This document shows, piece after piece, positions 7,544-58,966 of a DNA stretch of 64,000 bases. The DNA is from Eledone cirrhosa (taxonomy: Eukaryota). The stretch covers positions 340,256,001 to 340,320,000 of the forward strand of contig OZ024743.1 of assembly GCA_964016885.1 (NCBI GenBank), read 5' to 3'. A program made the position numbers and the translations under genes. Within the stretch, counting starts at the first letter, position 1, and every line of letters begins with the position of its first letter. The notes under the pieces are model-generated. The model searched no databases and was not told the DNA's origin. It was given only the letters and a program-made list of their open reading frames with translations.

Positions 7544-8967
7544 GTCCTAACACCAACGTTTGGAATACTCGATTGGACGATAGACGAAATCCTAGCAATT
7601 GATGTTAAAACTCGAAAAATTCTAAACATCACCGGAAACTTCCACATCAACAGTGACAGAGACCACCTTTACTTGAAACGTAAGCAGGGAGGCAGAGGGC
7701 TAACATCAGTTCAGACAGCATTTGAATGTCGCATCATATCCCTCCGACATCTACGAACCTCGAAACGTAGGAGCCCATGTATCGAGCAAGTCTGTCTGCA
7801 TGAAACAGATAAGATCATGAGAGTTGGGAAGGAGCTCCTTGAAAGATATTCCCTGCATGATAATCAAAAACTCACACCCAGGTAAATTATCCAACAATAC
7901 TGCAGTGAATCCATGAATGAAGACCTGCATACTTATCAGCAAAAAGTCATGCATGGATATGTTGCCATGAAGTTCTAGAGTGAGAGTAATATAGATAAAG
8001 AAAGTAGTTTATCTTGGACCAACAACCGCTATATTGGTTCCCATTTTAAAGGATATCCTTTTGCAATTCAAGAACAGAAAATCAACACAAAATACCTGAT
8101 TCACAAAAGAGACAGGGATACAGGCAAAACACCTAGATGTCACAATAAATGCAGACTCTGCAGAATTAACATCGAAGATGTCACCCATGTCATAAGCAGC
8201 TGTCCAAAGATGTCATCACGGTACAATCTACCAATGAGGCATGATGTAGTGGCCAAAACACTGTACAATGCAATTAATAGAAAAGACAATAAACATATTA
8301 ATAGCTAAAGCAATGTGGAAGACATACACATACATAATATGAAAGAGTACTGGTTGAATGGTCCAGTAAAAACCTCAATAAAATGCAGGCATAACAGACC
8401 AGATATAATATGGGACAGGGGAAAAGAAGGGATGCACGGTAGTGGAAGTTAGCTGCCCAGCAGATGCCAATATAATATCAAAGATTAGCGAAAAGGAGAA
8501 TATCTATGCAGAACTAATGAGAAATCTATAGATACTCCACCCTGACTATACCTTCAGATTTATGACTGTGGTTGTTTGGGCACTGGGATATGTTAGTAAC
8601 TGCCTCAATACAAATCTTGAGAAGCTAGGCTTCACAAAAAAGAAAGTACACGACTAGTTAGAAAATTACAAGTTCAATCCATTAATGGAACACTAAAAAT
8701 ATTTAAAACATTCCAAATATTTTGCATCTAATAACTGCATATACACATGTACAGATACAAAGCATATACACATGTACACATACAACTCAAAACATACACA
8801 TCCACACATACAATAACATCCATATCTACACATGCATGCATGCAGACATGCATACATATCTACCTAGTTGATGTTGTGTAAATTCCAATGAGAGAGTCTT
8901 GTATCTATGTTAGAAACCGGCTCTCTCTCTATTAGCAAACATTTGTGAAATTATAAAACCAGAAGAA
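7544..8967 (+). mobile_element. 5'-truncated R4/Dong-clade RLE LINE (same family as 12288-16372)
   Basis: YLKRKQGGRGL, CRLC..EDVTHVISSC, RHD, NRPDI..EVSCP; 3' end AAACCAGAAGAA runs directly into (TACA)n. Confidence 0.9.
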
Positions 8968-9137
8968 CATACATGCATACATAAATACATGCATACAAAC
9001 ATACATACATACAAACAAACAAACATACATACATACATACATAAATACATCCATACAAACATACATGCATACAAACAAACATACATACGTACGTACATAC
9101 ATACATACATACATACATACATACATACATACATACT
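8968..9137. repeat. (TACA)n microsatellite between two R4 copies
   Basis: Read directly. Confidence 0.95.
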
Positions 9138-12136: not shown

Positions 12137-12217
12137 ATTGTATTGAGGCAGTTACTAACATATCCCAGTGCCCCAATAATCACAGGCATAAATCTGAAGG
12201 TGTAATCAGGGTGGAGT
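12137..12217 (-). mobile_element. Short R4 fragment (paralog of about 12629-12709)
   Basis: ILHPDYTFRFMPVIIGALGYVSNCLNT; starts immediately after (TACA)n on its coding strand. Confidence 0.8.
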
Positions 12218-12287
12218 ATGTATGTATGTATGTATGTATGTATGTATGTATGTATGTATGTATGTATGTATGTATGTACGTATGTAT

Positions 12288-15200
12288 GTTCTTCTGGTTT
12301 TATAATTTCACAAAGTTTTACCAATAGAAAGAGAGTCGATTTCTAACAGAGACACAAGACTCTCTTATTGGAATTTACACAACATCAACTAGGTAGATAT
12401 GGATGTTATTGTATGTGTGGATGTGTATGTTTTGAGTTGTATGTGTGCATGTGTATATGCTTTGTATCTGTACATGTGTATATGCAGTTATTAGATGCAA
12501 ATTTTTTGGAATGTTTTACATATTTTTACTGTTCCATTAATGGATTGTACTTGTAGTTTCCTAACTAGTTGTGTAATTTCCTAACTAGTTGTGTTCTTTC
12601 TGTTCCTGTGAAGCCTAGCTTCTCAAGATTTGTATTGAGGCAGTTAGTAACATATCCCAGTGCCCCAATAGTCACAGGCATAAATCTGAAGATATAATCA
12701 AGGTGGAGTATCTGCAGATTTCTCATCAGTCCTGCATAAATATTCTCTTTTTCACTAATCTTTGATATTATATTGGCATCTGCTAGGCAGCTAATTTCCA
12801 CTACTGTGCATGTTTTCTTCTCCCTGTCCCACATCATAATATCTGATCTGTTATGCCTGCATTTTATTGGGGTTTTTACTGGAACATTTCACCAGTACTC
12901 TTTAATATTATGTACATGGATGTATTCCACATTGTTGAAGATTTTAATGTGTTTATTATCGGGGCTATCTTTTTTACGAACTGCATTGTACAGTGTTTTG
13001 GCCTCATAGGTAGATAGTACCACGATGACATCTTTGGACAGCTGCTGATGACATGGGTGATATCCTCGATATTAGTTCTGCAGAGTCTACACTTGTTATC
13101 ACATCTAGGTGTTTTGCCTGCATCCCTATCTCTTTTGGAAACAGGTATTTCGTGCTAATCTCTTATTCCTTGATTGCAAAAGCGTATCCTTCAAAGTGGG
13201 AGCCAATATAGCGGTTGTTGGTCCAAGATAGATTACTTTCCTTATCTATATTATTCTCACTCTGGAGATTCCTGGCAACATATCCATGAATGATTTTTTG
13301 CTGATAGGCATGCAGTTTTTCATCCATGGAATCGCTGCGATACTGCTGAGCGACATCCCTGGTGTGAGTTTTTGATTATCACACAGGGAATATCTCTCAA
13401 GGAGTTCCTTCCCAACTCTCATGATCTTATCTGTTTCATGCAGATAGACTTGCTCGAGAAACGGGCTCCTACGCTTCGAGGTTCGTAGATGTTGTCGTAT
13501 GCGACATTCAAATGTTGTCTGGACTGATGTTAGGCCTCTGCCTCCCTGCTTACGTTTCAAGTAAAGGCGGTCTATGTCACTGTTGATGTGGAAGTTTCCG
13601 GTGTTGTTCAGTATTTTTCGAGTTCCAACATCAACTGCTAGGATTTCATCTATCGTCCAATTGAGTATTCCAAACGTTGGTGTTAGGACAGGCACAGCAA
13701 ACACATTGTGAGCCACTGTTTTGTTTTGCGCAGAGAGTTCCGATGACCAGATCTTTCTTAATCGGGTGTAGTATTCCCTGGTTACGCGTTCTTTATTACA
13801 GATACCATTATAGGATATGTTCTCATCTATCCCCAGGTATCTGTAGCAGTCCTCATCAGATATCGGTGAAACAGTTAGACCATTGATGACAATGTTGCTA
13901 GATTGGGTTGTTGTTTTTCCCCGCTTTACAGTCATGTATGAGCATTTATCTTGGCCAAACACCATTCCTATATCCTTTGAGAATGTTGTAACCAGGTCGA
14001 GATTTTTCTTCATCCCATCCATGTTATTGGCATAGAGTTTCAGATCGTCCACAAAGAAATTATGGGTTAGGTTCGTATTTCTGTCCTCCTGTGAACCAAT
14101 GATGTATCCCTCACATTTCTTGAGCAGAAAGGACAAGGGGTTTAATGACAAGATGAATAATATCACAGAGAGACTGTCCCCCTGAAATATACCCCTGCAA
14201 TATTTTATTTTATCAGTGAAAATAGAGTCCTCCCTCTCTGTATTTAACCTTAGGATAGTAGCCCACTAAGAAGACAGCCTCTCTATGGCTCTGACAATAA
14301 TGTCTGGGACTTTAGCAAGTTGGAGGGCCTCTATCATCCAAGAGTAGGGAACAGAATCGAAAGCTTTCCTGAAGTCCAGCCAGACTGTAGTCATATTCCT
14401 CCTAAGTTGTCGCACCTCCGACATCGCAGTTTTGTTGATTAGGAGTTGTTCAGTACATCCCCAGACCCCTTTCTTTCCAGCTGCTTGTTCATCTGTGATG
14501 ATGTTATTTCTTTTCACAGTGATCTTGGAGGAATAGGTTCAGGCAGGCTGTATACATCTTATACATCAGGTTCTAGCATGCAATGGGTCGGTAGTTTTTT
14601 GCCAAGTGGTGTCTTTGTTTTGGGGGACCAGTAACGTTTGTGCTCATGTCAACCATTCTGGTATAAGTGTATCTCCCTGAAGAACTTGTTGGTAGAGGTC
14701 AGTAAGATACCTCCGATAGAATATTAGTTTTTTGTACCAGTAGCCGACAATCATGTCTCTTCCTGGTGTTTTCTTATCTTGGAGTTTTCCTATCACAGTC
14801 TCAAGGGTACCCTCACTTATTTCGTATGTTTTTGTTGTAGTGTACGAGCAATAGTTCTTTCAGATTTCTCTTAGCCGCACTGCATCTTGGTTGAAATTCT
14901 TCTTTTCACCCCATATTTTGCTCCAAAAGGAATCTGTCTTTCTGGGATGGAGCCTCAGTGACATTTATTATTTTGCCCTTCATATCTCTATAGACTGATG
15001 TTTGGTTTCGTCTGAATCTTTTATTAAGCACTTTTCTCTCATTACCTTCTTCAAGTATCGGCGTTTTTCGCTAACAGCTCTCAATTCTTGTTTGAGGGTG
15101 ATCAGTTTATATTGGAGAGTTCTGGTTCTACTGTTACCAAACATCGTCTCTATTTTATTTTTCACTCTTTGTTGGTGAGGAGTGAGGTTTTTTTGTGTTT

Positions 15201-16372
15201 GTTTGCATGTAAGGAGCATTGTCACACGTCCTATGTTTTTTCGTAGGTCGTCACTCTTTTTTTCTATTTTAGTTATATATGATGGTATTTTTGGTAGTGT
15301 TTTGTTATTGTTAATATCTCTGCTATCACCAAGATAATGCTTCACTGTCATTGCTAAGGCATATAACAGACGTTGATTTGCCAAAATGTTGGGGTTTTTA
15401 TCCCTCGTAAATATTCATCCCCTATTTCGTCAATAACACGTAGTATTTCATTATTTGGTTTTTTATTCACCATTGTTATTTTAACACGTTCAGCAAGAGA
15501 GATATTTATACATGAGTTAATTTCTCTCTGGAAGATTTCGTTGAGGGAAATTTTCAATTGTTTATACTTTTGATTATCATTATCGATAGTATTTTCCGCA
15601 ACAGTCGAAGTAGACTCAGATGGTATACGTGGTGTCACATTTATTCGATTATTATTATTATTTCTTCGATTATTATTATTATCGATAGTATTTTCCCCAG
15701 CATTCGAGGTAGACTTAGATGGTACAGGTGGTGTCAAGTTTCTTACAGGCATAGTTGTTTCAAGGCGCTGTTCGACCTGGCTGCTAGGAAGTCTAGTAGC
15801 ATGGCGACCTGTAGCACGTGTTGATTCCATGTTTGTTGTGTGGGACTTACAATTAATAATATTTATCTTATTTTTAAGTTCAACAAACGTCGCTTGTTGG
15901 CGTAATTGTTTCGCTGTGAAATAATTTAGCTCTGGGTGCATTTCGTCCCAGTGTAGCTTCATTCTATTCATATAGTCAATGGAGAGATTGTTTTTTGCCA
16001 TTTTATAACAATTAAATAAATCATTATTAAGTTCGCAACTCCAAGAGAAATGCGATTTATAATTTCGGTTTCTTCTGTAGCTACACCTGAATAAAGTTTG
16101 ATTACCTTCCTTGTTATTTGTCTTCGATACTTCCTTAATTCTTTTGTTGATGTATTCAGCAATGCTGTTTGTAGCAAATCCTTGTAAAATGAATTATGTA
16201 TTTAGTCGGATATCTCTACGAATTCGAATAAAAGGTGTCTTCAGAAGGGATAGTTAGAAGAATAACCAGTTATTCAACCTGGCTGTAGTTGTGGCATTAC
16301 TGTCGGAGATAGTATTCATCTTAAATTTAATAAATAGTCTCCCACGCCAAAATATGCGACTGATCGCGTTGA
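12288..16372 (-). mobile_element. Near full-length R4/Dong-clade RLE non-LTR retrotransposon, single ORF broken by frameshifts
   Basis: Order on the minus strand: N-terminal YMNRMKLHWDEMHP..QLRQQ, then WLDFRKAFDSVP, QGDSLS, FVDDLKLY (RT), CRLC..H..C, RPDI..D..EISC (RLE). Flanked by (TACA)n at both ends (12218-12287 and 16376-16430). Confidence 0.92.
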
Positions 16373-18014: not shown

Positions 18015-18070
18015 ACCTACCTCCCTACCTACCTACCTACCTACCTACCTATCTATCTATCTATCTATCT
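18015..18070. repeat. (TACC)n/(TATC)n microsatellite at the 5' junction of Tx1 copy A
   Basis: Read directly. Confidence 0.9.
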
Positions 18071-18101
18071 CTGGGATGGACACACGCGTATAACTTGCTG
18101 A

Positions 18102-18168
18102 GTAAGTTCTGTTTAAATTTCTATAGAAATTCTTGTCTGATAACTTTAATTTTTGTACCATTTTGTAG
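18102..18168 (+). other. Putative 67-nt spliceosomal intron in copy A 5'UTR
   Basis: GTAAGT ... AT-rich ... TTTTGTAG; equivalent segments in copies E, F and G. Confidence 0.55.
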
Positions 18169-18286
18169 AGAGACTGCCAGGTCAAACTTTGATCTGGTCG
18201 GTCTCTCAAAATATTCTACGCCTTTAGGCGAAATAGTTAAACAAAAAAAAAGTTTTTTCTTGTTGAAAAGTCAATATTTTTTTTAA

Positions 18287-20078
18287 ATGGCCGAAGCTTC
18301 TTCACCAAAATTCGAAGGAGGAAAGGGGAAGATGAACTTACAGCTTCCCCCCTGCCACTGTCACAGTAGCAGAGGTCAAGAAGAAAGGTCAGCCAGAGGA
18401 AGAATTCTCTCCACCTGTTAACCGACAACTTGACGTTGCCATGGCAACAACCCAAAGAACCAGCAGCAACAGCAACAACAACAATCCAACGGACGAAAAC
18501 AACACCAATAACAATAACAATAACAACAACAAGACCAATAACGGTGACAACAACAACAATGATAACAACAACACCACCAACGACAACAACAACACAAACA
18601 AACAAAATTTCTCCTTCGCCGAGACGACAAGGAAAACCCTCGACTATCTGCCAGTAGATATAACCAAAGCGAAGGAGCTACTGGCGGATGCGAAAAAATA
18701 TATAGTGTACGGAGAAAATGGTTCATTCACAATCCATTCCCCCCCCCGGAACTAAAAAGCCAGAGACTCCTAAACACGGTCATGTTTAGGACAATCTCGA
18801 ACAAAAGTAAAAAACCAGCTCAACCATCACAGAGCGAGATAGAGCTGGTTTTAAAAGACGTCATGAAGGACATCACCTTCATTCAGAAGGATAGACTCTA
18901 CGGGAGTCTATCCATTCTCATGAAGGACAGGGACACAGCAGTGAAACTGTCCATCAAACCAATCACATCCACCGCATACACCTTCTACCCTACGTACATG
19001 GGTAGAAGAACACAAAAAATAAAAATCCACACCATCCTGCCGATTATGGACATATGGTGGGTTTTGACAGGTTTTCTGGACCTGGAGGATGACATGCTGG
19101 TGTCCATGGGAAAGGCATCGGGTGACGCGTTCAGTGGAACGAGCCTCGAACTTGTAGTTCAAATGAGGCCCGAAAGGATCGCCCAGATCCCTGAACGCGT
19201 CATACTGGATGATCTAACCTTCATCAACATTACCGTTGAGGGTAGACGGCCCTCGTGTTACCTCTGCGGAACCAGAGGTCACCTGAGGGCTGTCTGTCCC
19301 CAACTTAATAAGAAAACCCCAATCCTGCCTACACCACCAACAACTGCACAACCAACACAATCACCACAACTACCACTACATAAACAACCACCACAGCTCA
19401 AACCAAAACAAAACAATGTCCAACCCATCCCCTCCACTCAAAAAACAAAAACAATTTCCAAAACACCCGTACCGCAAACACAACCCGAAAATATACCCCT
19501 CCCCTCCAACGCGGAAGACGACCCTAGTTCGTCGTCAGACGAGGAGGAGCACTTCCACACAATCAAAAGAAAAAAAAGAAAACACACCTCAGACACACAA
19601 ATGAAAACAACCCCTCCCCAAAACATAACACTGACACCAACACAAAAGAGCTCACAACAACAGCAAACAAAAAACACCACACAAAAACAAAAACATGCAT
19701 ACACATACATAAACACAAGAAACAAAAAACTGTTAAACATTGTGTACAACAACAATCTAATAAAAACACAAGGGCCTAACTTCACCCAGGCAGGGGATTT
19801 CCCCCACCTCAAAATGATTAAGGCCCCACAGGACACCTATAAAACTTTAAAAAACAATTTTAAAGAGGACGTGGGTCCCCCCTGCGTCGGGCCCATTAAC
19901 CGCGTCCTCCTAAAAAAACTATCCCACCCCCTCCCCAAACACCCACACAACTCCAAGCTCCCCAACCACACAACACACTGATGCCCCTACACTTCCACAA
20001 ACCACCACCCCACCCAACAACCCATCCCCCACCCTAATGGAAATTGTGTAGCCCGATACCCGGGACGCAGAGAGGTAA
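18287..20078 (+). pseudogene. Copy A ORF1 (gag-like, Asn-rich N-terminus, CX2CX4HX4C knuckle), frameshifted
   Basis: CYLCGTRGHLRAVC; ORF pieces 18441-18755 and 18782-19981; C-terminal TTTPPNNPS..MEIV*PDTRDAER* is homologous to the copy D ORF1 end. Confidence 0.85.
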
Positions 20079-20102
20079 GTGCCTTTTCTCTTCACCACCA
20101 AC

Positions 20103-23100
20103 ATGGCTATGCTAAGAGTAGGCTGTTTAAATGCGCGTGGCCTGGGCTCAACTTGGAAGCAAGCAATGCTTCTAAATGACCTCAGGTCACAACGTATAGA
20201 TGTGATGGTTATTTGCGAGGCCCGGATCAGCAACGTGCGACAGCTGGCCCCCACCTTTGATGACTTTGAGATGCACGCATCTCTCTGTCAGCCCGGAGGT
20301 GGGGGTGGAGTTGTCGTTCTGCTGCAAAAACATCTGGGTCTCGCAACACAGATGGTACATTTGGACCCGGAGGGTCGACTAGTGGTTCTGGACCTTGGCA
20401 GTGGTAAAGGCGGAGCGTTTAGGTTGGTAGCCGCCTACGGCCCTTTCGGGTCAATGCGGCCGGACTTCTTCCATCGTCTGGAGACTTTTCTAGGGACGTC
20501 CCGCTCCTTGCTATTAGTGGGGGACTGGAATGGTATCCTAGATGCACGCTGGGACTACGTAGGGGCCTGTCCCGATAGAGAGGGGTGTAATAGCCTCAAA
20601 GGGTTAATCGGTCGATTTGACCTGGCCGATAGATATCGACTAGATTTTCCGACTGCGCCAACCTGGACTTGGGCAAATCGTAGCGGAACATCTAGGTCGT
20701 ACCTAGATAGGTTCTTAGTTAGAATTAAGGATAAGGACTTTTTAAGTTGTCCAAAAATGCGCATGGTTGGCTATTCAGACCACAAATTAGTGACCTGCAT
20801 GGTCAACCTTGACAGAACTCATAGACAGGGACCCGGTTACTGGAAGCTCAACTTGTCCTTACCGGCAAGTAAGGCTTACAGGAACCGGATTAGCACTTTA
20901 GTTAAGGAGCGGTTGACGGGCGCCATCGTCAACAGCAGGTGGTGGGGATCTCTCAAAAGAGAGATTAGAGTAGTCTCTATAGAATTTAGTAAGGAGTTAG
21001 CCTCCAATAGAAATAGGAAGGAAAGGGAGTTGGTAGATAGTGTAGAAGAGGCAATTAGAAGCGGCGACGTGGCCAGAGTGCTAGCGTCGAGAACGGCCCT
21101 GGGCCAGTTCTTCGACGCGAAACACGAAGGCTGCATCGTCCGAAGCAAAATACGTGCTCTGGGAAACGAGGGGACCAAAGCTGTTAGCTGGGCCCGCGTG
21201 ACAGAAGCCAAAAGAGGGAGCAGATCCACTATCCGGTCTTTGCGAGACCAGGATGGACGGGTGATCCTTGAACCTAAGCAGATGTGCGAGGCTTTTCAAA
21301 AGCACTTTGCCGAATTGTTCGGAAGGGGCGGGGGGCCGGTTGGGGACGTGGACTTCGGTCCATACCTCGACGGCCTGCCGCGTCTCTCGGACAGGGAGGC
21401 GAAGTCCTGCGAGGAGCCGATTTCAGCCGCTGAGATAGAGGACGTGCTGAGCCAATGCGGCAAACGGAAATCCCCGGGTCTCGATGGTCTTCCTTACGAA
21501 TTATATCTAGCTATGCCGGACTTGTTCCCCGATCTCATCGAGGCGGTCTACTGCAACTGGCAACAGAACGGGAGAATTCCCTGTACTGTGACCAAGGGCG
21601 TAGTCACGCTAGTGAGGAAGGACGAGAACAAGGGGGACGAAATAAGTAACTTCAGGCCCATAACTCTGCTAAATACAGAGTTACAGATTTTGGCCAAGGT
21701 GCTAGCAAAGAGGTTGGCGCTTGTCGTGGGCAACCTGGTGGGAGATGCGCAGACATGTGCTATCCCGTCCAGGTCCATCCATGACAACCTCCACCTCATG
21801 CGATACATCATAGAGAGGGTTGGGAACGAACCCGGCTTTGGTGGGGCTCTGATCAACTTGGATCAATCTAAGGCGTTCGATAGAGTCGACCATGGTTACC
21901 TGGATGCGGTGCTAGCGGCGGCAGGCTTCGGACCCGTTTTCAGGGGCTGGATCACTGCTATGCACAGCAGCCGCATCTGCTCTAGGGTCAAGGTGAACGG
22001 CTACCTCTCGGAGCCGTTCAAAATCGCGCGGTCAAGGGTGCCCTCTCTCCTCCCTTCTGTATTTGTTGACTCTCGAGCCACTACTGCGGAAGTTGGAGTT
22101 GTTGCAGGGCATCCCTTTGGAACCGGGATTGCGGAAAGCGGTGTCAGCCTACGCCGATGACGTGACAGTAATGGTGTCGACGGCCTCCGAAATCGAGGCG
22201 GTCGGCACCTTACTGGAGGAGTACGAAAAGTTCACAGGGGCTAAGCTGAACCGGGACAAGTCGATCGGTTTGCAACTCGGCACGTGGAGGGGCAGACCGA
22301 TGCCCTCCGATGGCGTCGTCGGACGCTGGACGGAGGGCCCGGTGAAGTTGCTCGGGGTCTGGTTCGGACCGAACCTCCAGGTGGAGAAAAACTGGGCGGA
22401 GGTTACGAACAGGGTGTTTGCACTGACCCAGAAGTGGGCCAGTTGCAAACTATCCCTGAAAGGTCGGGCGGAGGTGGCGAACACTTATATAGCGTCCGTC
22501 ATCTACTACCGCCTGACCGTAGTGCCCTGCCCAAGGGAAACCCTCACCAAGATGGAGCGCGCACTCTTCCAATTCCTTTGGAAGAGGCGGGCTCCTATGG
22601 TGAGGAGATCCATCTGCTGTCAACACCCTTCGAAAGGAGGGCTGGGGATGCCGTAGCTAATGGTGCGTAAACACGCATTAAGGCTACGGCACCTCTACGT
22701 ATTCCTCACCGGACAACCGGTGTGGGCCTCGTTTGTGAGACGAACCTTTCCCAGACTCGTCTCACTCACCGAGCTGCAATCCTGGGTCAAGCAAAGACCG
22801 AGAAAACTGGGCGCCTGGCACACTGAGTGTGCCCAGGCGCTCACCGCCCTCTGGCAGGCGGATCCGGTTATCAGTGGAGACTCCACCGCAACATTCTATA
22901 GAGGGCTGGTACGCAGCAGGTGCGACGACGCCCTCGGAGAAGCCCTAGACATGGAGGAGGACGAACTGGCCAGCCTGTTCGGTAGGACATTCATCCCGGG
23001 ACCTATGGACAACTTCCAGAAGTCCCTGGCCTGGCAGTGCTACCGAGCGGCTTTACCCGTTCGAGAAAGGCTCTACAGACACGGGCGCCCGGGTAGGGAC

Positions 23101-23532
23101 CCCGCCAAAAAGATCTGTCCCAGATGCGTGTGCGACGAGGAAACCGTTGCACACGCATTGGTACACTGCTCGGGCGTAGCCGATCTGTGGGGCTATGCCG
23201 AACAACTGCTGTCAAGGGTGGGACCGTTCCGGTTGACCACCGAGTCTGTTGTAATGATCAAGCCGCCTCCCCCCTTCAAAGATGAAGCAGAGGCGGTGTT
23301 TCTGTGCGTAATAGCCATGGCGAAAGAGGTTGTATGGTGGACGCGTCTGAAAGGACTGAGGTCAGGCACCTTTCTCTCTGGCCAACAACTGGTCCGTTTC
23401 TTCCGATATCATTTCGGAAGAAGGATCAGGATGGAGAGAGAGGTGCTGCACCCCAGTCGTTTTTATGAAAGGTGGGTGAAAGTGGCGAGAATGGCCCGTG
23501 TGAATGGGCCTTCTCTTTACATAAGCCTGTAG
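20103..23532 (+). pseudogene. Copy A ORF2 (APE endonuclease + RT + C-terminal Cys/His finger), one frameshift and one nonsense
   Basis: NARGL, ICE, GDWN, YLD, SDH; KSPGLDG, NFRPITLLN, LDQSKAFDRV, YADD; CPRC..ETVAH..C. Small deletion near 22033 and TAG at 22654-22656. Confidence 0.95.
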
Positions 23533-23780
23533 GTGGAAAAGAGGAAGGAACGAGGGAGCACCCCCTCTCTGTGCTCCTGAGGAAAAGGGGGTGTGTGTGC
23601 GACCCCCCAAGGCGCCTCCTCTCTATTGAGGATTTTGTTATAAATTTTATTTTTTGTTATATCTTATTTTATTTTTATATTTTGTTATTGCCTCCTCCTT
23701 ATTGAGGACGCCTTTTTGTGTAAACTCCCCCCTTTGTACTTGTCCCACTTTTGATGCCCTAGTGGCAAATAAAAGAAACA

Positions 23781-24088
23781 TATCTATCTATCTATTTATC
23801 TACCTACCTACCTCACTCTCTACCTATCTATTTATCTACCTACCTCACCGTCTACCTATCTATTTATCTACCTACCTATCTATTTATCTACCTACCTACC
23901 TACCTATCTATTTATCTACCTATCTATTTATCTACCTACCTCACCGTCTACCTATCTATTTATCTACCTACCTATCTATTTATCTACCTCCCTACCTACC
24001 TACCTACCTACCTACCTACCTACCTACCTATCTATTTATTTACCTACCTACCTACCTACCTACCTACCTACCTACCTACCTACCTACC
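23781..24088. repeat. (TATC/TACC)n tract between copies A and B
   Basis: Read directly. Confidence 0.95.
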
Positions 24089-34806: not shown

Positions 34807-37800
34807 GGAATTAATCTAGCTGTCGTCTGTTCTACAGTGTGGATGTAATTCACTTCGCGCAGAAGTTTTGTTCAAATTTATTGCGGAAATTTTGTGAGTT
34901 CAAATTTAATTTTGATACTATTGTGTAGCTTGACCCCCCGTCTGAACTGTCAGGCGGTGGGTCAGCTCATCTTTACCCCTCCTAGAGGTGAAAAACCTGT
35001 TTTAAAAAATGTTATGGCAAAAAAAATTTCAATCGTCTGACAGAAATGTTAAACGAAACGAACGAAAATAGTGGTGGGGGGACAGCGGTAAGAGTTGTAA
35101 GCTCGCACGCTTTAGTCCCCCCTTCCTTCCCAACTAACGTCATAGAGAAGGAAGGAAAAAATAAAATAAAAACAGACGAATCTGCGGAGAAAAATGACGA
35201 AAACACAATTCTGGACATGGATTCCAACAACGGAAAAAAAAAAATTTGAAAAATTGCATGACAATACTAATACCACAAACAAAGACACAACAAACACAAA
35301 AATAACATTTGAAAATAACACCATAACAGAAAGCAAAGCAGACGACAGAGTCAACAAGATTTCATTTGCACAAAAAACAAAGAAATCTTTGACATATATA
35401 CCTGAAAATATTTCAGTTGTGGCACGAAAAATCACAGACGCCAAACAATACATAAGTGAAGGAGAGAATGGTATTTTATCGGTAAAAATGCCTCAAGAAC
35501 TCACCAAAGACATTGAAAGTCGAACGGTCATGTTCCGCACCATCAACAACACTTCAAAAAAACCTGAACAGCCAACTCAGGCAGATATCAAAACAGTACT
35601 CACAGAAGTACTTAATGAAACCACTTTCATAAGAAAAGACAGACTGTATGGAAGCCTAGCAATCATTATGAAGAACGAATCGGCGGCCAAAAAAATGTGC
35701 TTTGTCACCGATTCGTTCGAAAATTTTTACCTTTTATCCATCTTATATGGGTAAAAGAACTCAACGCATATGGCTGGATGCAATGATGCCAGATGTGGAC
35801 TACTGCTGGCTCATAGCTGGCTTCATCGATCCAGTGAATGACAACGTGATTTCCATTGGGAAAACCACAGGCAATGCGTTCAGTGGAACAGGTATAGAGC
35901 TGGTAGTGCAAATGAAGTCTGAACGCATCGCCCAAATACCCGACAGAATCCTATTAGAGGGCCACGGGTATATAAACATTAGCGTGGAGGGGAGAAGGCC
36001 GTCCTGTCATATCTGTGCAGGCAGAGGGCACCTGAAGGCCGCTTGTCCCCAACTCAACAAAAAGAAAACCCTGCTACCAACACCAGCTCCACCACCACCA
36101 CCTTTCAAAGGCACTTTGCCCGATTGTTCGGGGGAGGCGAGGGTCCGGGCGGGAACGTGGATTTCGGTCCATACCTCGACGGCCTGCCGCGTCTCTTGAG
36201 CGAAGAGGCAGAGTCCTGCGAGGGACCAATCTCGGCTGATGAGATCGGAGATGCGCTGAGCCAATGCAGCAGACGCAAATCTCCAGGTCTCGATGGTATA
36301 CCTTACGAACTTTATTTATCAATGCCGGTCTTCTTCTCCGAACTCCTCGAAGCGGTCTACTGCAATTGGCAGCAGAACGGGAGAATTCCTTGTTCTGTAG
36401 CCAAGGGCGTAGTCACGCTGGTGAGGAAGGACGAGAACAAGGGAGATAGTATAAATAATTTTCGGCCCATAACCCTGCTAAACACAGAGTTAAAGATTTT
36501 GGCCAAGGTGTTAGCAAAGAGGTTGGCGCTTGTCGTGGGTGGCCTGGTGGGAGATGCGCAGACATGTGCTATCCCATCCAGGACCATTCACGATAACCTC
36601 CACCTCATGCGATACATCATAGAGAGGGTTGGCAACAAACCCGGCTTCGGTGGGGCCCTGATCAACTTGGATCAGTCTAAGGCCTTCGATAGGGTCGACC
36701 ATGGTTACCTGGATGCGGTGCTAGCGGCGGCTGGGTTCGGTCCTGTTTTCAGAGGCTGGATCACTGCCTTACATAGCAACCACATCTGTTCTAGGATCAA
36801 GGTGAACGGCTACCTTTCGAAGCCGTTCGAAATCACACGATCCATTCGACAGGGGTGCCCTCTCTCCTCCCTTCTGTACGTATTGACTCTAGAGCCTTTA
36901 CTGAGGAAGTTGGAGTTGTTGCAGGGTATCCCCCTGGAACCAGGATTGAGCAAAGCGGTGTCGGCCTACGCCGATGACGTAACAGTAATGGTATCGACCG
37001 ACTCGGAGATCGAGGCGATCGGTACCTTACTGGAGGATTACGAAAGGTTGTCAGGAGCGAAACTGAACCGGGAAAAATCCATCGGGCTGCAACTCGGAAC
37101 GTGGAGAGGCAGACCGATGCCTCCCGACGGTGTCGTCGGACACTGGACGGCGGGCCCGGTATAGTTGCTTGGGGTATGGTTTGGACCGGACCTCCAGGTG
37201 GAAAAGAACTGGAACGAGGTTACGAACAAGGTGTTTGCACTAACCCAGAAACGGGCCAAGTGTAAGCTGTCCCTAAAAGGCCGGGCGGAGGTGGCGAACA
37301 TTTACATAGCGTCCGTCACTTACTACCGCCTGACTGTCGTGCCTTGCCCTAAGGAAACACTCACCACCATGGAACGCATGCTCTTCCAATTTCTTTGGAA
37401 GAAGCGCCTTCCTATGGTGAGGAGATCCATCTGCTGCCAACAACCTTCGAAAGGAGGGCTGGGGATGCCGTGGTTGATGATGCGTAGGCACGCATTAAGG
37501 CTACGGCACCTACAGGTATTCCTCACTGGTCAACCGGTGTGGGCTCCGTTCGTGAAACGAGCCTTTCCGAGACTCGTCTCGCTCACCGAGCTACAGTCCT
37601 GGGTCAAGCAAAGATCCGGAAAACTGGGAGACTGGCACACTGAGTGTGCTCAGGCGCTCAGGGCTCTCTGGCAAGCGGGCCAGGCCATCGGTGGAGAATC
37701 CACCTCATCATTCTATAGAGGGCTGGTGGCTAGCAGGGGCGATGACACCCTTGGAAAGTCGCTGGACATGGAAGAAGACGAACTGGCCAGCCTGTTCGGT

Positions 37801-38418
37801 AGGACTTTCGGCCCAGGATCAATGGACAACTTCCAGAAGTCACTGGCCTGGCAGTGCTACCGAGGGGCTCTACCCGTTCGAGAGAGGCTCTACAGACACG
37901 GGCGCCCGGGCAGGGATCCCTCAAAAAAGATTTGCCCTAGATGCGTGCGTCACGAAGAAACCGTTGCGCACGCATTGGTGCAATGTCCGGGCGTGGCTGA
38001 TCTGTGGGGCTACGCCGAACGACTGCTGTCGCGGGTGGCGCCGATTCAATTGACCGCCGAGTCCGTGATGACAATCAAACCGCCTCCCCTCTTCACAAAA
38101 GAAGCAAAGGCGGTTTTTCTGTGCGTAATAGCCATGTTGAAAGAGGTTGTTTGGTGGACACGATTGAAAGGTCTGAGGTCAGGCAACTTCCTCTCTGGCC
38201 ATAGTCTGGTCTACTTCTTCCGATATCACTTCGGAAGAAGGATAAGAATGGAGAGAGAGGTGCTTGGCCACAGGCAGTTTTATGAAAGGTGGGTGATAGT
38301 GGCGAGAATGGCTCGTGTAAATGGGCCTTCTCTGTATACCATCCTGTAGGTAAAGAAGTAAAGGAGAGGGGAGCACCTTCTCCATGTGCTCCCCGGGCAA
38401 AGGATTGCACACTTTTTC
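34807..38418 (+). mobile_element. Tx1 copy E: 5'UTR + ORF1 N-part (35014-36100) joined to EN-less ORF2 (36101-38349)
   Basis: CHICAGRGHLKAAC knuckle, then an abrupt switch to FQRHFARLF..RT..YADD..CPRC; 3'UTR cut at the junction to copy F. Confidence 0.9.
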
Positions 38419-39679
38419 GCGCTGGTGAGTAAATGTTTTAATTTCATTGGAAACTGCATGAACTGAATCTACATTCTTACACCATTTTGTAGATAAGCTG
38501 CCACCCTACACTTTGTAGGTGGTACCAACCCCAAATAATAAGCCCATCAGGGCGAAAAACGGAGAAATCCCACAAAATTTCTACCGGAATTTTGAATATA
38601 GCCAAAATGGCTAAATTCTTTGACCTCATCTTAACATGTGTCGCCAATTGTGTCACCGCTGTTCACCTTTTTCCCCACATACATGGGGAAAAGAACACAG
38701 AAAATAAAAATCCAAAGTATCACACCAAATATTGACATTTGGTGGGTACTATGTGAATTTTTAAACCACGAAACAGACTATATAATATCGGTAGGTAAGT
38801 CCTCCGGCGACCTGTTCAGCGGAACTAGCCTGTCCAAATGACACCAGAACGAATAGCTTGGATCCCGGAACCTGTGTTTCTGGATGGGCTTATATACATA
38901 AACATTTTGGTCGAGGGTAGGCGGCCCTCATGTTACCACTGCTCAAGCAGGGGTCACCTGAGAGCTTCCTGTCCTCGGCTAACTAGCCCCCAAAAAGGCA
39001 CTACTGCCAACACCTGCAACACCAGCACAACAATCACCACCACCACCACAAAATAGTGACAACAAAACAAACGACAAACACAGTCCCACCGAACCACTCC
39101 CCACCTAAAACAACTCCAGAAACACCCACACACATAACAGCTCCCCAAAATGTACCTGTCCCCAACAACACGGATGAGGCCTCATCATCGTCACCCAGTG
39201 AGGATGAGGGAGAGACTTTCCGACCAGTAAAAAGAAAAAAGAAAAGACATAACACAAACAAAAAGGCAACAAACACACAAACACCAACACAAGCGACGCA
39301 AACAGCACAAACAGAAACACCCCCTCCTGAAAACAAAACAACTACTACAAAACGTAAACACACACAAGAACCACAGACAAAAAGCAACCCAACACAACAA
39401 AAAATGTTACACCTACATAAATACTAACAATAAAACTTTAAAAGACACCATATATAAAAACCCTTCGGTGGAGACCGAAGGGAAAACTTTTACACACTCT
39501 TCGGAGAATCCTAATCTTAAAATGATTAGGACCTCCATGGACACACATAAACAGTTAAAAGAAAAATTTCCTAACGATGTAGGTAACCCCTGCGTCAAAC
39601 CCTACAATCGAGTCCTTCCTGTTAAACTCCCATTTGCATTTGTCCCCTTTCTTTTGTGCCCTTGTGGCTAATAAAGAAA
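38419..39679 (+). mobile_element. Tx1 copy F: internally deleted D-subfamily derivative (5'UTR + part of ORF1 + 3' terminus, no ORF2)
   Basis: Matches D 28933-28992, then 29813-30818, then the last ~60 nt of the D 3'UTR; AATAAAGAAA then TATC. Confidence 0.88.
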
Positions 39680-39703
39680 TTTATCTATCAATCTCGCACT
39701 CAC

Positions 39704-58370: not shown

Positions 58371-58966
58371 GAATGCCATGGTTGACGGAGGCTCGGCTCT
58401 GTAAGGTATAGTAATTTTTAACCGCTATAACAATTGTAAATTGTTTAAAACTTTAACCAAATTGTAGATAAAAACACCCTCCTCCTCGTGAAAGGGGTCT
58501 TTCTGCCCGTTATTTGGCCCTTCAGGGTTAAATAATCGCTTATTGGGGTTTTGTGCCCAATATTCGTTTTAAACCCCAAAAAAACATGGCTACAAAAAAG
58601 AATTTTCACAAGTCACTCACACTCATTCCGTCTTCTTCTTCCTCAATCGTCACTACATCAGAGAGAAGATTGTCTCTCTCCCTCCCTTCTCTAAATGTGT
58701 CTCTCTCCCTCCCTTCTCTTTCGCAAGCGACGCCAGTAAAGAAAAAGAAAAATATAGTTTCTGATAATTTCCAAGAGCACGTGCAAACCGAGGAACATTT
58801 CTCCACGACGACGACAACGACGAAAAATGTGTGCGGTAAATACGGAAAGCCATTTCATTCGTCTGACGTCATGAATAATAGCAGTAGCAGCCGTATTAAC
58901 AGCAGCAGCAGCAACAGTGACAAGGAAAACAACAGTAGCAACCGCAATAGCATCAGCAGCAGCATA

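What the first reader, a model, noticed from the sequence alone, without database searches (positions are those of the whole stretch)
18102..18168. Conserved 67-68 nt spliceosomal-type intron retained in the 5'UTR of four divergent Tx1 LINE subfamilies
Seen: copy A GTAAGT(18102)..TTTTGTAG(18168) = 67 nt; copy F CTG|GTGAGT(38425)..TTTTGTAG(38492) = 68 nt; copy G GTAAGG(58401)..CTTTAAC..ATTGTAG(58467) = 67 nt; copy E GAAGTT(34862; GTAAGT minus one T)..TGTGTAG(34928) = 67 nt. The interiors are AT-rich and only loosely alignable, yet ends and length are kept, which is how an intron evolves. Established: retrotransposition normally purges introns, and intron retention is best known for Penelope-like elements, not Tx1/L1. 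Inference: unspliced RNA serves as the transposition template while spliced RNA is translated, or the segment doubles as an internal promoter so that spliced copies are dead ends.
Basis: partly seen in the sequence, partly recalled or inferred. Interest (0 to 1): 0.85.

Follow-up and report, generated by a model that had tools for sequence, protein, structure and literature searches.

The report
Unremoved intron-like leader in cephalopod LINEs
Several distantly related families of a jumping gene in this animal genome, likely a cephalopod's, keep a 67-69 base intron-shaped stretch just after their start, yet no genomic copy lacking it was found, so it likely works while left in place, probably as part of the element's own promoter, rather than as an intron that is cut out.

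Summary
The four segments are at the stated coordinates, and each is a family-wide feature of young, high-copy, microsatellite-targeting L1/Tx1-type LINEs. Three further families found nearby (H, I, J) also carry GTAAG…TTGTAG of 67-69 nt about 30 nt from the 5' end. A and G share ends and length although their ORF1 cores are only 26% identical. So the module is real and selected.

The intron reading has four problems:
- Family E has GAAGTT throughout, with no GT, yet was recently active. Family K lacks the module.
- In A, E, F, I and J the interior is conserved in phased AATT blocks.
- Paired genome scans found 0 copies with the segment removed against 1,688 with it. Human L1 shows 1.8%, which would give about 30.
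- 67-69 nt is shorter than all 61 host introns inferred (shortest 89).

No run on record as RNA was available, so splicing itself is untested.

Best reading (0.5): an intron-shaped internal-promoter module that likely attracts splicing factors but is rarely or never excised. Main rival (0.27): a true Penelope-like retained 5'UTR intron. Precedents exist in Penelope/Chlamys and L1; I found none in print for Tx1.

The parts
18030..18069 (+). (CTAC/CTAT)n microsatellite next to the 5' end of copy A; likely the insertion target
   Evidence: microsatellite adjacent to 157 of 165 family 5' ends
18070..18101 (+). about 32-nt leader at the 5' end of family A element
   Evidence: family homology starts here in 30 loci; a 368-nt contig of run X1 also starts at 18070
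18102..18168 (+). 67-nt intron-shaped module of copy A: GTAAGT, phased AAATT/GAAATT/AAC/ATTTTT blocks, candidate yTnAy at -23..-19, TTTTGTAG
   Evidence: 376 genomic copies with it, 0 without
18169..18206 (+). strong hairpin starting at the first base after AG; a hairpin sits at +1 to +9 in all 7 families with unrelated sequence
   Evidence: MFE z -6.6 on A locus L002; F -3.3, E -6.2, H -4.2, I -6.2, J -5.9, G only -1.6; 8 of 10 predicted pairs with a two-sided change but covariation term only -0.04, one row offset
18287..19981 (+). ORF1 of copy A (frame-broken in this copy; N/T-rich N-terminus, CCHC knuckle)
20079..23532 (+). ORF2 of copy A: APE endonuclease, RT, zf-RVT (broken in this copy)
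   Evidence: Pfam; best PDB match L1 ORF2p E=8e-26
23768..23800 (+). 3' end AATAAAAGAAAC followed by a (TATC)n tail, next to which the following copy lies
34815..34861 (+). 47-nt leader of family E, containing GAT|GTAATT (GTCATT in a subfamily)
34862..34928 (+). 67-nt module of copy E; no GT at the homologous start in the family; internal GTGAGT/GTAAGT 36 nt before AG
   Evidence: 116 copies with it, 0 joined
35046..35048 (+). ORF1 ATG of copy E (copy is internally deleted from late ORF1 to RT)
38425..38492 (+). 68-nt module of copy F, CTG|GTGAGT...TTTTGTAG; this copy keeps only about 7 nt of its leader and is an internally deleted derivative of about 1.25 kb
   Evidence: 19 copies with it, 0 joined
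58371..58400 (+). 30-nt leader of family G after an (ATT)n tract
58401..58467 (+). 67-nt module of copy G, GTAAGG...AATTGTAG; interior not alignable to the other families above shuffled level
   Evidence: 1,023 copies with it, 0 joined
58586..58588 (+). ORF1 ATG of copy G

Best explanation
The 67-69 nt segment is a conserved intron-shaped module in the first ~100 nt of these LINEs that was present in every genomic copy the probes could score, and it likely works unspliced, as part of the internal RNA polymerase II promoter and leader. Shown: position about 30 nt from the 5' end, donor- and acceptor-type ends, near-fixed length, partly conserved interior blocks, a hairpin right after the AG, and no joined copies. 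Inferred: (i) the ends are kept because they recruit U1 and 3'-site factors near the start site, which would help transcription of a long, A-rich, intronless RNA; (ii) the interior AATT blocks, about one helical turn apart, act at DNA level; (iii) excision is rare or nil because the segment is shorter than host introns, has a purine-broken pyrimidine tract and abuts a stable hairpin; (iv) an efficiently spliced version would have been lost in one round of retrotransposition, so only a poorly spliced one persists. E and K show that the full set of signals is helpful but dispensable.
For: Joined against retained copies, same flank probes: A 0/376, G 0/1,023 (43, 49), E 0/116 (44, 60), H 0/154 (86, 88), F 0/19 (87, 89). 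Total 0 of 1,688; 95% bound about 0.18% by the rule of three; human L1 116 of 6,609 = 1.8% (PMC5860796, passages).

A-group acceptor scan: 800 copies read TAG|AGGG, and all 11 exceptions are unspliced point mutants.

E lacks GT yet has 97-99% identical copies, with ORF1 open for 501 codons in 5 of 30. K lacks TTGTAG in 25 of 25 loci.

Positions free in a splice site are fixed: G at -4 and A at -9 in 7 of 7 families. Pyrimidines in -14..-3 number only 6-8 of 12. The shortest of 61 inferred host introns are 89, 90, 93 and 115 nt. AA/TT power at 10-11 bp: H p=0.001, A 0.034, I 0.04.

Precedent: the L1 splice donor is kept because it overlaps a RUNX3 promoter site (PMC5860796, PMC5860798, passages).
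Against: No promoter or factor-binding data; steps i-iv are inference. The end profile is what real splicing would give, TGTAG is a used host acceptor (6 of 61), and a yTnAy sits at -23..-19 in several families. G keeps ends and length without a conserved interior, which is intron-like. Periodicity is not significant in F, G, E or J (p=0.07-0.24, uncorrected). The host intron sample is small (4 of 61 under 120 nt), was picked by a score that favours consensus ends, and includes a few low-confidence calls. Penelope and Chlamys-3 keep a 5'UTR intron after retrotransposition (PMC8557442, passage), so absence of joined copies does not prove absence of splicing. Donor-to-distant-acceptor splicing was not scanned genome-wide.
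Confidence: 0.5

Rival explanations
1. It is a true, regularly spliced minimal intron. Spliced RNA is exported and translated, and the proteins act in trans on unspliced nuclear RNA, which alone is reverse transcribed (Penelope-like retention in a LINE).
For: GTRAG with free +6 and free exon side; TGTAG in 7 of 7; length 67-69 across ORF1s 26% identical; ends more constant than the interior in the A-group; CTAAT at about -30 in an H subfamily. A 5'UTR intron overlapping the internal promoter is retained in Penelope and Chlamys-3_cRei (PMC8557442, passage).
Against: Needs more than 99.8% exclusion of spliced RNA, against the cis-preference of L1 proteins (PMC5860796, passage). E and K amplified without the signals. 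Splicing gives no common translational gain: only F has upstream ATGs inside the segment, and G's short upstream ORF stops either way (and sequence). Shorter than all sampled host introns.
Confidence: 0.27
2. It is a purely DNA-level promoter element (factor sites at fixed spacing, phased A-tracts) whose ends only resemble splice sites.
For: Conserved interior blocks, fixed -4 G and -9 A, no joined copies, E tolerates loss of GT.
Against: Donor variation matches the U1 profile position by position. G keeps both ends and the length while its interior is no more alike than shuffled. E has a perfect GTRAGT inside the segment where the others have none, as if replacing the lost site (rough chance about 0.03, my estimate from base composition).
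Confidence: 0.18
3. It is neutral shared ancestry or recent 5'UTR swapping between families, with no selection on the ends.
For: I and J share 92-95% of the first 60 nt after AG with A while their ORF1 cores are only 56-68% alike, which hints at 5' exchange, so the seven families are about five lineages.
Against: A against G: leader, interior and downstream parts are at shuffled identity (0.39-0.55) yet ends, length and AG-to-ATG distance are kept.
Confidence: 0.05

Closest known systems
Penelope (Drosophila virilis) and Chlamys-3_cRei 5'UTR intron (PMC8557442, passages read)
   Same: Intron in the 5'UTR overlapping the internal promoter, kept after retrotransposition; significance stated as unknown.
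   Different: Those are GIY-YIG Penelope-like elements whose introns are described as introns; here the element is an APE-RT LINE and splicing is not shown.
Human L1 5'UTR splice sites and SpIREs (PMC5860796, PMC5860798, passages read)
   Same: Splice donor within the first 100 nt of the internal promoter, kept for promoter function; most RNA unspliced.
   Different: L1 leaves 1.8% spliced genomic copies and has a ~525-nt spliced segment with cryptic sites; here donor, acceptor and a 67-69 nt length are kept together across deep family splits, with 0 of 1,688 spliced copies.
TART antisense introns; introns reported in Tad and kangaroo-1 transcripts (PMC1636488, passages read)
   Same: Short (53-104 nt) introns with similar size and spacing across divergent subfamilies of a non-LTR element.
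   Different: TART introns are on the antisense strand, so the template is unaffected; here the module is on the sense strand.
Microsatellite-targeting Tx1 families Kibi and Koshi (PMC4494074, passages); L1-Tx1 in Octopus vulgaris, 13 recently active families (PMC13282606, passages and supplement search)
   Same: Domain layout of the L1 group, microsatellite targets, cephalopod context.
   Different: Targets here are (CTAT)n and (ATT)n; the term searches in these two papers showed no mention of a Tx1 5'UTR intron.
Intron protection from HUSH without splicing (PMC8770142, passages read)
   Same: An unspliced intron can benefit a retro-type transcript.
   Different: Shown in human cells with longer introns and independent of splice sites; HUSH in cephalopods was not examined here.

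Membership tests
Tx1 clade (L1 group) non-LTR retrotransposon | ORF2 with APE endonuclease, RT and C-terminal zinc-binding region | tested here: met
   PF03372, PF00078, PF13966; L1 ORF2p is the best PDB match, E=8e-26 against 1e-8 for R2
Tx1 clade (L1 group) non-LTR retrotransposon | ORF1 with CCHC knuckle (feature recalled, not from a call) | tested here: met
   C-x2-C-x4-H-x4-C in A, F, E and K; first C replaced in the G copy aligned
Tx1 clade (L1 group) non-LTR retrotransposon | target preference, e.g. microsatellites | tested here: met
   157 of 165 5' ends adjacent to a microsatellite; criterion from PMC4494074
Tx1 clade (L1 group) non-LTR retrotransposon | RT tree placement with named Tx1 references | not testable with these tools
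   no named Tx1 protein among hits; the label Tx1 rests on the three features above
U2-type spliceosomal intron | GT donor with U1 match | tested here: inconclusive
   met in A, F, G, H, I, J; not met in E; K has only GTGAGC at +29 and GTTTGT at +44
U2-type spliceosomal intron | YAG acceptor with pyrimidine tract | tested here: inconclusive
   TGTAG in 7 of 8 families and used by 6 of 61 host introns; tract weak (6-8 of 12) with a fixed A at -9; absent in K
U2-type spliceosomal intron | branch point | tested here: inconclusive
   T at -23 in 7 of 7, T at -22 and A at -20 in 6 of 7, in AT-rich sequence; G's TTTAAC is variable
U2-type spliceosomal intron | length within host intron range | tested here: inconclusive
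   67-69 nt against a minimum of 89 in 61 inferred host introns; small sample
U2-type spliceosomal intron | excision from RNA | not testable with these tools
   no run on record as RNA; contigs show presence only
SpIRE-forming LINE | genomic copies lacking exactly the segment | tested here: not met
   0 of 1,688 (86/88, 87/89)
Penelope-like element | GIY-YIG endonuclease | tested here: not met
   Pfam finds an APE endonuclease and no GIY-YIG in 28 frames
Spliced-leader RNA | Rfam SL match and shared leader | tested here: not met
   SL2 at E=0.43 (21.3 bits, cut-off 41) in A only; none in G, E, F, H; leaders differ between families

The most novel reading that the evidence does not exclude
These LINEs carry a real or mimic first intron tuned to the lower size limit of the host spliceosome. 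It loads splicing factors beside the start site, so an intronless retro-RNA gains the benefits of an intron (transcription, escape from silencing of intronless elements), while the template RNA always stays unspliced. If any spliced RNA exists, it would be strictly shut out of retrotransposition, against the cis-preference rule for LINEs.
Probability: 0.3. Interest if true: 0.8.

Novelty: new variant of a known kind. Interest (0 to 1): 0.5.

Why it matters
Retrotransposition should erase a sense-strand intron in one cycle. A module with donor, acceptor and near-fixed length kept across LINE families whose ORF1s are 26% identical, with no spliced copy among 1,688, points to selection on splice-type signals without loss. 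Either LINEs can use an unspliced intron mimic, or they can separate template RNA from message as retroviruses and perhaps Penelope do. Both are testable with gonad RNA from the host group, and E and K are natural knock-outs. If no splicing factor is involved, it is a newly mapped internal promoter of a cephalopod LINE, useful but ordinary.

Tried and rejected
RNA evidence. No RNA holder was listed. Four runs were laid on 18066-18450. X1 (kind not on record, 88 M letters) gave one 368-nt contig that bridges the segment unspliced. X2 gave 252 contigs and one unrelated GT..TC joint at 18235-18301. X5 and X6 gave none. Contigs drop rare forms, so this is no evidence against splicing.

Relatives elsewhere. 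The metagenome scan with the ORF1 alignment found no relative (284 pattern hits, 0 confirmed), so conservation in other species is untested.

Other readings rejected. SL-RNA or Sm-site reading: one sub-threshold Rfam hit, not repeated; the SLIDR paper PMC7986045 has no mollusc terms. Conserved RNA structure inside the segment: the folds differ between families and are weak (-4.5 to -7.6 kcal/mol). Alternative E donor GTAATT: no joined copy and it varies as GTCATT; the internal GTGAGT donor 36 nt before AG was not probed. The internal deletion in window copy F does not have GT-AG ends; for E I only located the deletion. Splicing to remove upstream ATGs is not general.

Earlier findings. Nothing shown.

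Literature. Ten searches showed no report of a Tx1 5'UTR intron. Repbase reports and subscription papers are not covered. Reported splice sites in zebrafish ZfL2-1 are recalled only (one search found nothing).

Rows dropped. The variant at position 66 was left out of the Fisher test because those loci had been fetched for carrying such mutations. One search's totals of 2,123 and 2,007 use the looser 811 count, which includes copies truncated inside the segment; I report the stricter 1,688. The host intron sample is limited to 61 inferred introns.

Full report
Setting. The window lies in a 3.0-Gb animal genome. The nearest named RT homologs are from Argonauta (67%) and Sepia (49%), so the host is likely a cephalopod. 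From 18 to 40 kb and 58 to 64 kb the window holds a same-strand array of LINE copies. ORF2 has an APE endonuclease, RT and zf-RVT and is closest to L1 ORF2p among solved structures. ORF1 has a CCHC knuckle. 157 of 165 sampled 5' ends abut a (CTAT)n, (TA)n, (CT)n or (ATT)n repeat, and 58 of 165 have a Tx1-like 3'-end motif within 400 nt upstream. This fits the Tx1 clade; tree placement could not be tested.

Observation. All four segments are as described and are family-wide. The layout is: microsatellite, 27-47 nt leader, AT-rich 67-68 nt segment, TGTAG, a hairpin, then the ORF1 ATG 114-118 nt after the AG. In 664 kb around the window, tblastn with ORF1 cores gave 12 sites. Seven of them had GTRAG..TGTAG upstream by a regular expression, including three new families: H (67-69 nt), I (68) and J (67). 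The other five were copy E, two 5'-truncated copies, family K, and a hit deeper inside that same K copy. The pattern occurs by chance 7.4e-6 per site, so its repeated presence about 30 nt from the 5' end is not chance. I and J are close to A in the UTR, so by lineage the canonical form stands in four (A-group, F, H, G) of six.

What looks like an intron. Donor positions +1 to +5 are fixed while +6 and the exon side vary. In 71 A-group copies 0 of 11 end columns carry shared variants against 20 of 55 interior and 9 of 25 leader columns; the downstream hairpin is as constant as the ends, at 2 of 40 (p=0.026 for ends against interior). A and G are 26% identical in ORF1 and at shuffled identity throughout the UTR, yet share both ends and the length. 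TGTAG ends 6 of 61 inferred host introns. A yTnAy-like pattern lies at -23..-19.

What does not. Family E reads GAAGTT as a family, yet its copies are 97-99% alike and 5 of 30 have ORF1 open for 501 codons. Family K has no TTGTAG in 25 of 25 loci and gave 2,639 first-look candidates, which are not copy numbers. The interior is the only blastn-alignable part between the A and E UTRs, and interior identity among A, E, F, I and J is 0.65-0.82 against about 0.54 shuffled. The constant interior blocks are AATT-type tracts about 10-12 nt apart; periodicity is significant in H, A and I only, uncorrected. G at -4 and A at -9 are fixed in 7 of 7 families, which splicing does not require, and the pyrimidine tract is weak. 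The shortest inferred host introns are 89, 90, 93 and 115 nt. This sample is small and was chosen with a consensus-favouring score.

The genomic test. Using the same two flank motifs with a short or a 65-90 nt spacer: A 0/376, G 0/1,023, E 0/116, H 0/154, F 0/19. Zero of 1,688 bounds joined copies at about 0.18%. Human L1, whose 5'UTR is spliced at very low levels, leaves 1.8% (PMC5860796 and PMC5860798, passages), which would give about 30. A donor-independent scan of the A-group acceptor found 800 TAG|AGGG copies and 11 exceptions, all unspliced point mutants; donors ending in TAG would be missed. The probes are exact matches, so old diverged copies are not counted on either side.

RNA. No run on record as RNA holds the sequence. 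One run of unknown kind gave a single unspliced contig from 18070 to 18437. This shows the unspliced form exists in that run and says nothing on splicing.

Mechanism. An efficiently spliced sense intron would appear as joined copies unless spliced RNA is barred from retrotransposition. The simplest account of the kept ends, near-fixed short length, phased interior, dispensability in E and K and absence of joined copies is a module that works unspliced in the internal promoter and leader, and likely recruits U1 and 3'-site factors without completing splicing (0.5). A true intron with template/message separation remains open (0.27), because Penelope and Chlamys-3 keep such a 5'UTR intron over their internal promoter (PMC8557442, passage). 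A DNA-only promoter (0.18) and neutral ancestry (0.05) explain less. The roles of U1 near start sites and of phased A-tracts are recalled general knowledge, not results of calls. Protection by unspliced introns is from PMC8770142 (passages) and is shown only in human cells.

Novelty. Introns in non-LTR transcripts are known (L1, Tad, TART antisense; PMC1636488, passages). Ten paper searches showed none for a Tx1 5'UTR. Papers were read as passages only; the O. vulgaris supplement was term-searched; Repbase entries were not available and may describe such a feature. Verdict: a real, selected feature and a new variant of a known kind, with splicing unproven and somewhat disfavoured. Interest 0.5.

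Noticed in passing
window 23768, 26666, 39670 and 165 family loci: The elements end in AATAAA(A)GAAA plus a (TATC)n tail, and new copies sit next to such tails, building same-strand tandem arrays; 58 of 165 5' ends have such a motif within 400 nt upstream. The element appears to make its own target.
   Followed up: partly
window 18169-18230, 34929-34995, 38493-38555, 58468-58535: Two or more hairpins follow the segment in every family, with unrelated sequence but the same position, the second followed by GAAAA/TAAA; likely a conserved 5'UTR RNA structure.
   Followed up: partly
window 38418-39690: Copy F is an internally deleted derivative of about 1.25 kb (5'UTR, part of ORF1, 3' end); whether it is an amplified non-autonomous family was not checked.
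   Followed up: partly
window 34815-38417: Copy E jumps from late ORF1 (about 36102) straight into the RT region, lacking the endonuclease.
   Followed up: partly
G000:C4:340420981 (+) and 340454908 (-): Families I and J share 92-95% of the first 60 nt after AG with A while ORF1 cores are only 56-68% alike, suggesting 5'UTR exchange or strong constraint.
   Followed up: no
L192:2130-2400 (family K): (ATT)n-targeting family, ORF1 48% identical to G, with an AT-rich tract and donor-like sites at +29 and +44 but no conserved acceptor; a natural counter-example.
   Followed up: partly
window 34893-34898: E carries a perfect GTGAGT (GTAAGT in some copies) 36 nt before the AG, where other families have none; possibly compensates for the lost donor.
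   Followed up: no
window 7544-9040 and 12216-16193 (-): A different RT-bearing LINE family in inverted copies (84% alike over 1.5 kb), plus a ~190-nt SINE-like repeat at 1301, 6862, 10559, 54683 and 57073.
   Followed up: no
L343-L372: Many host kinase domains match Pfam over the whole length without introns (e.g. C11:42257468, C5:71454728); may be single-exon genes or retrocopies.
   Followed up: no
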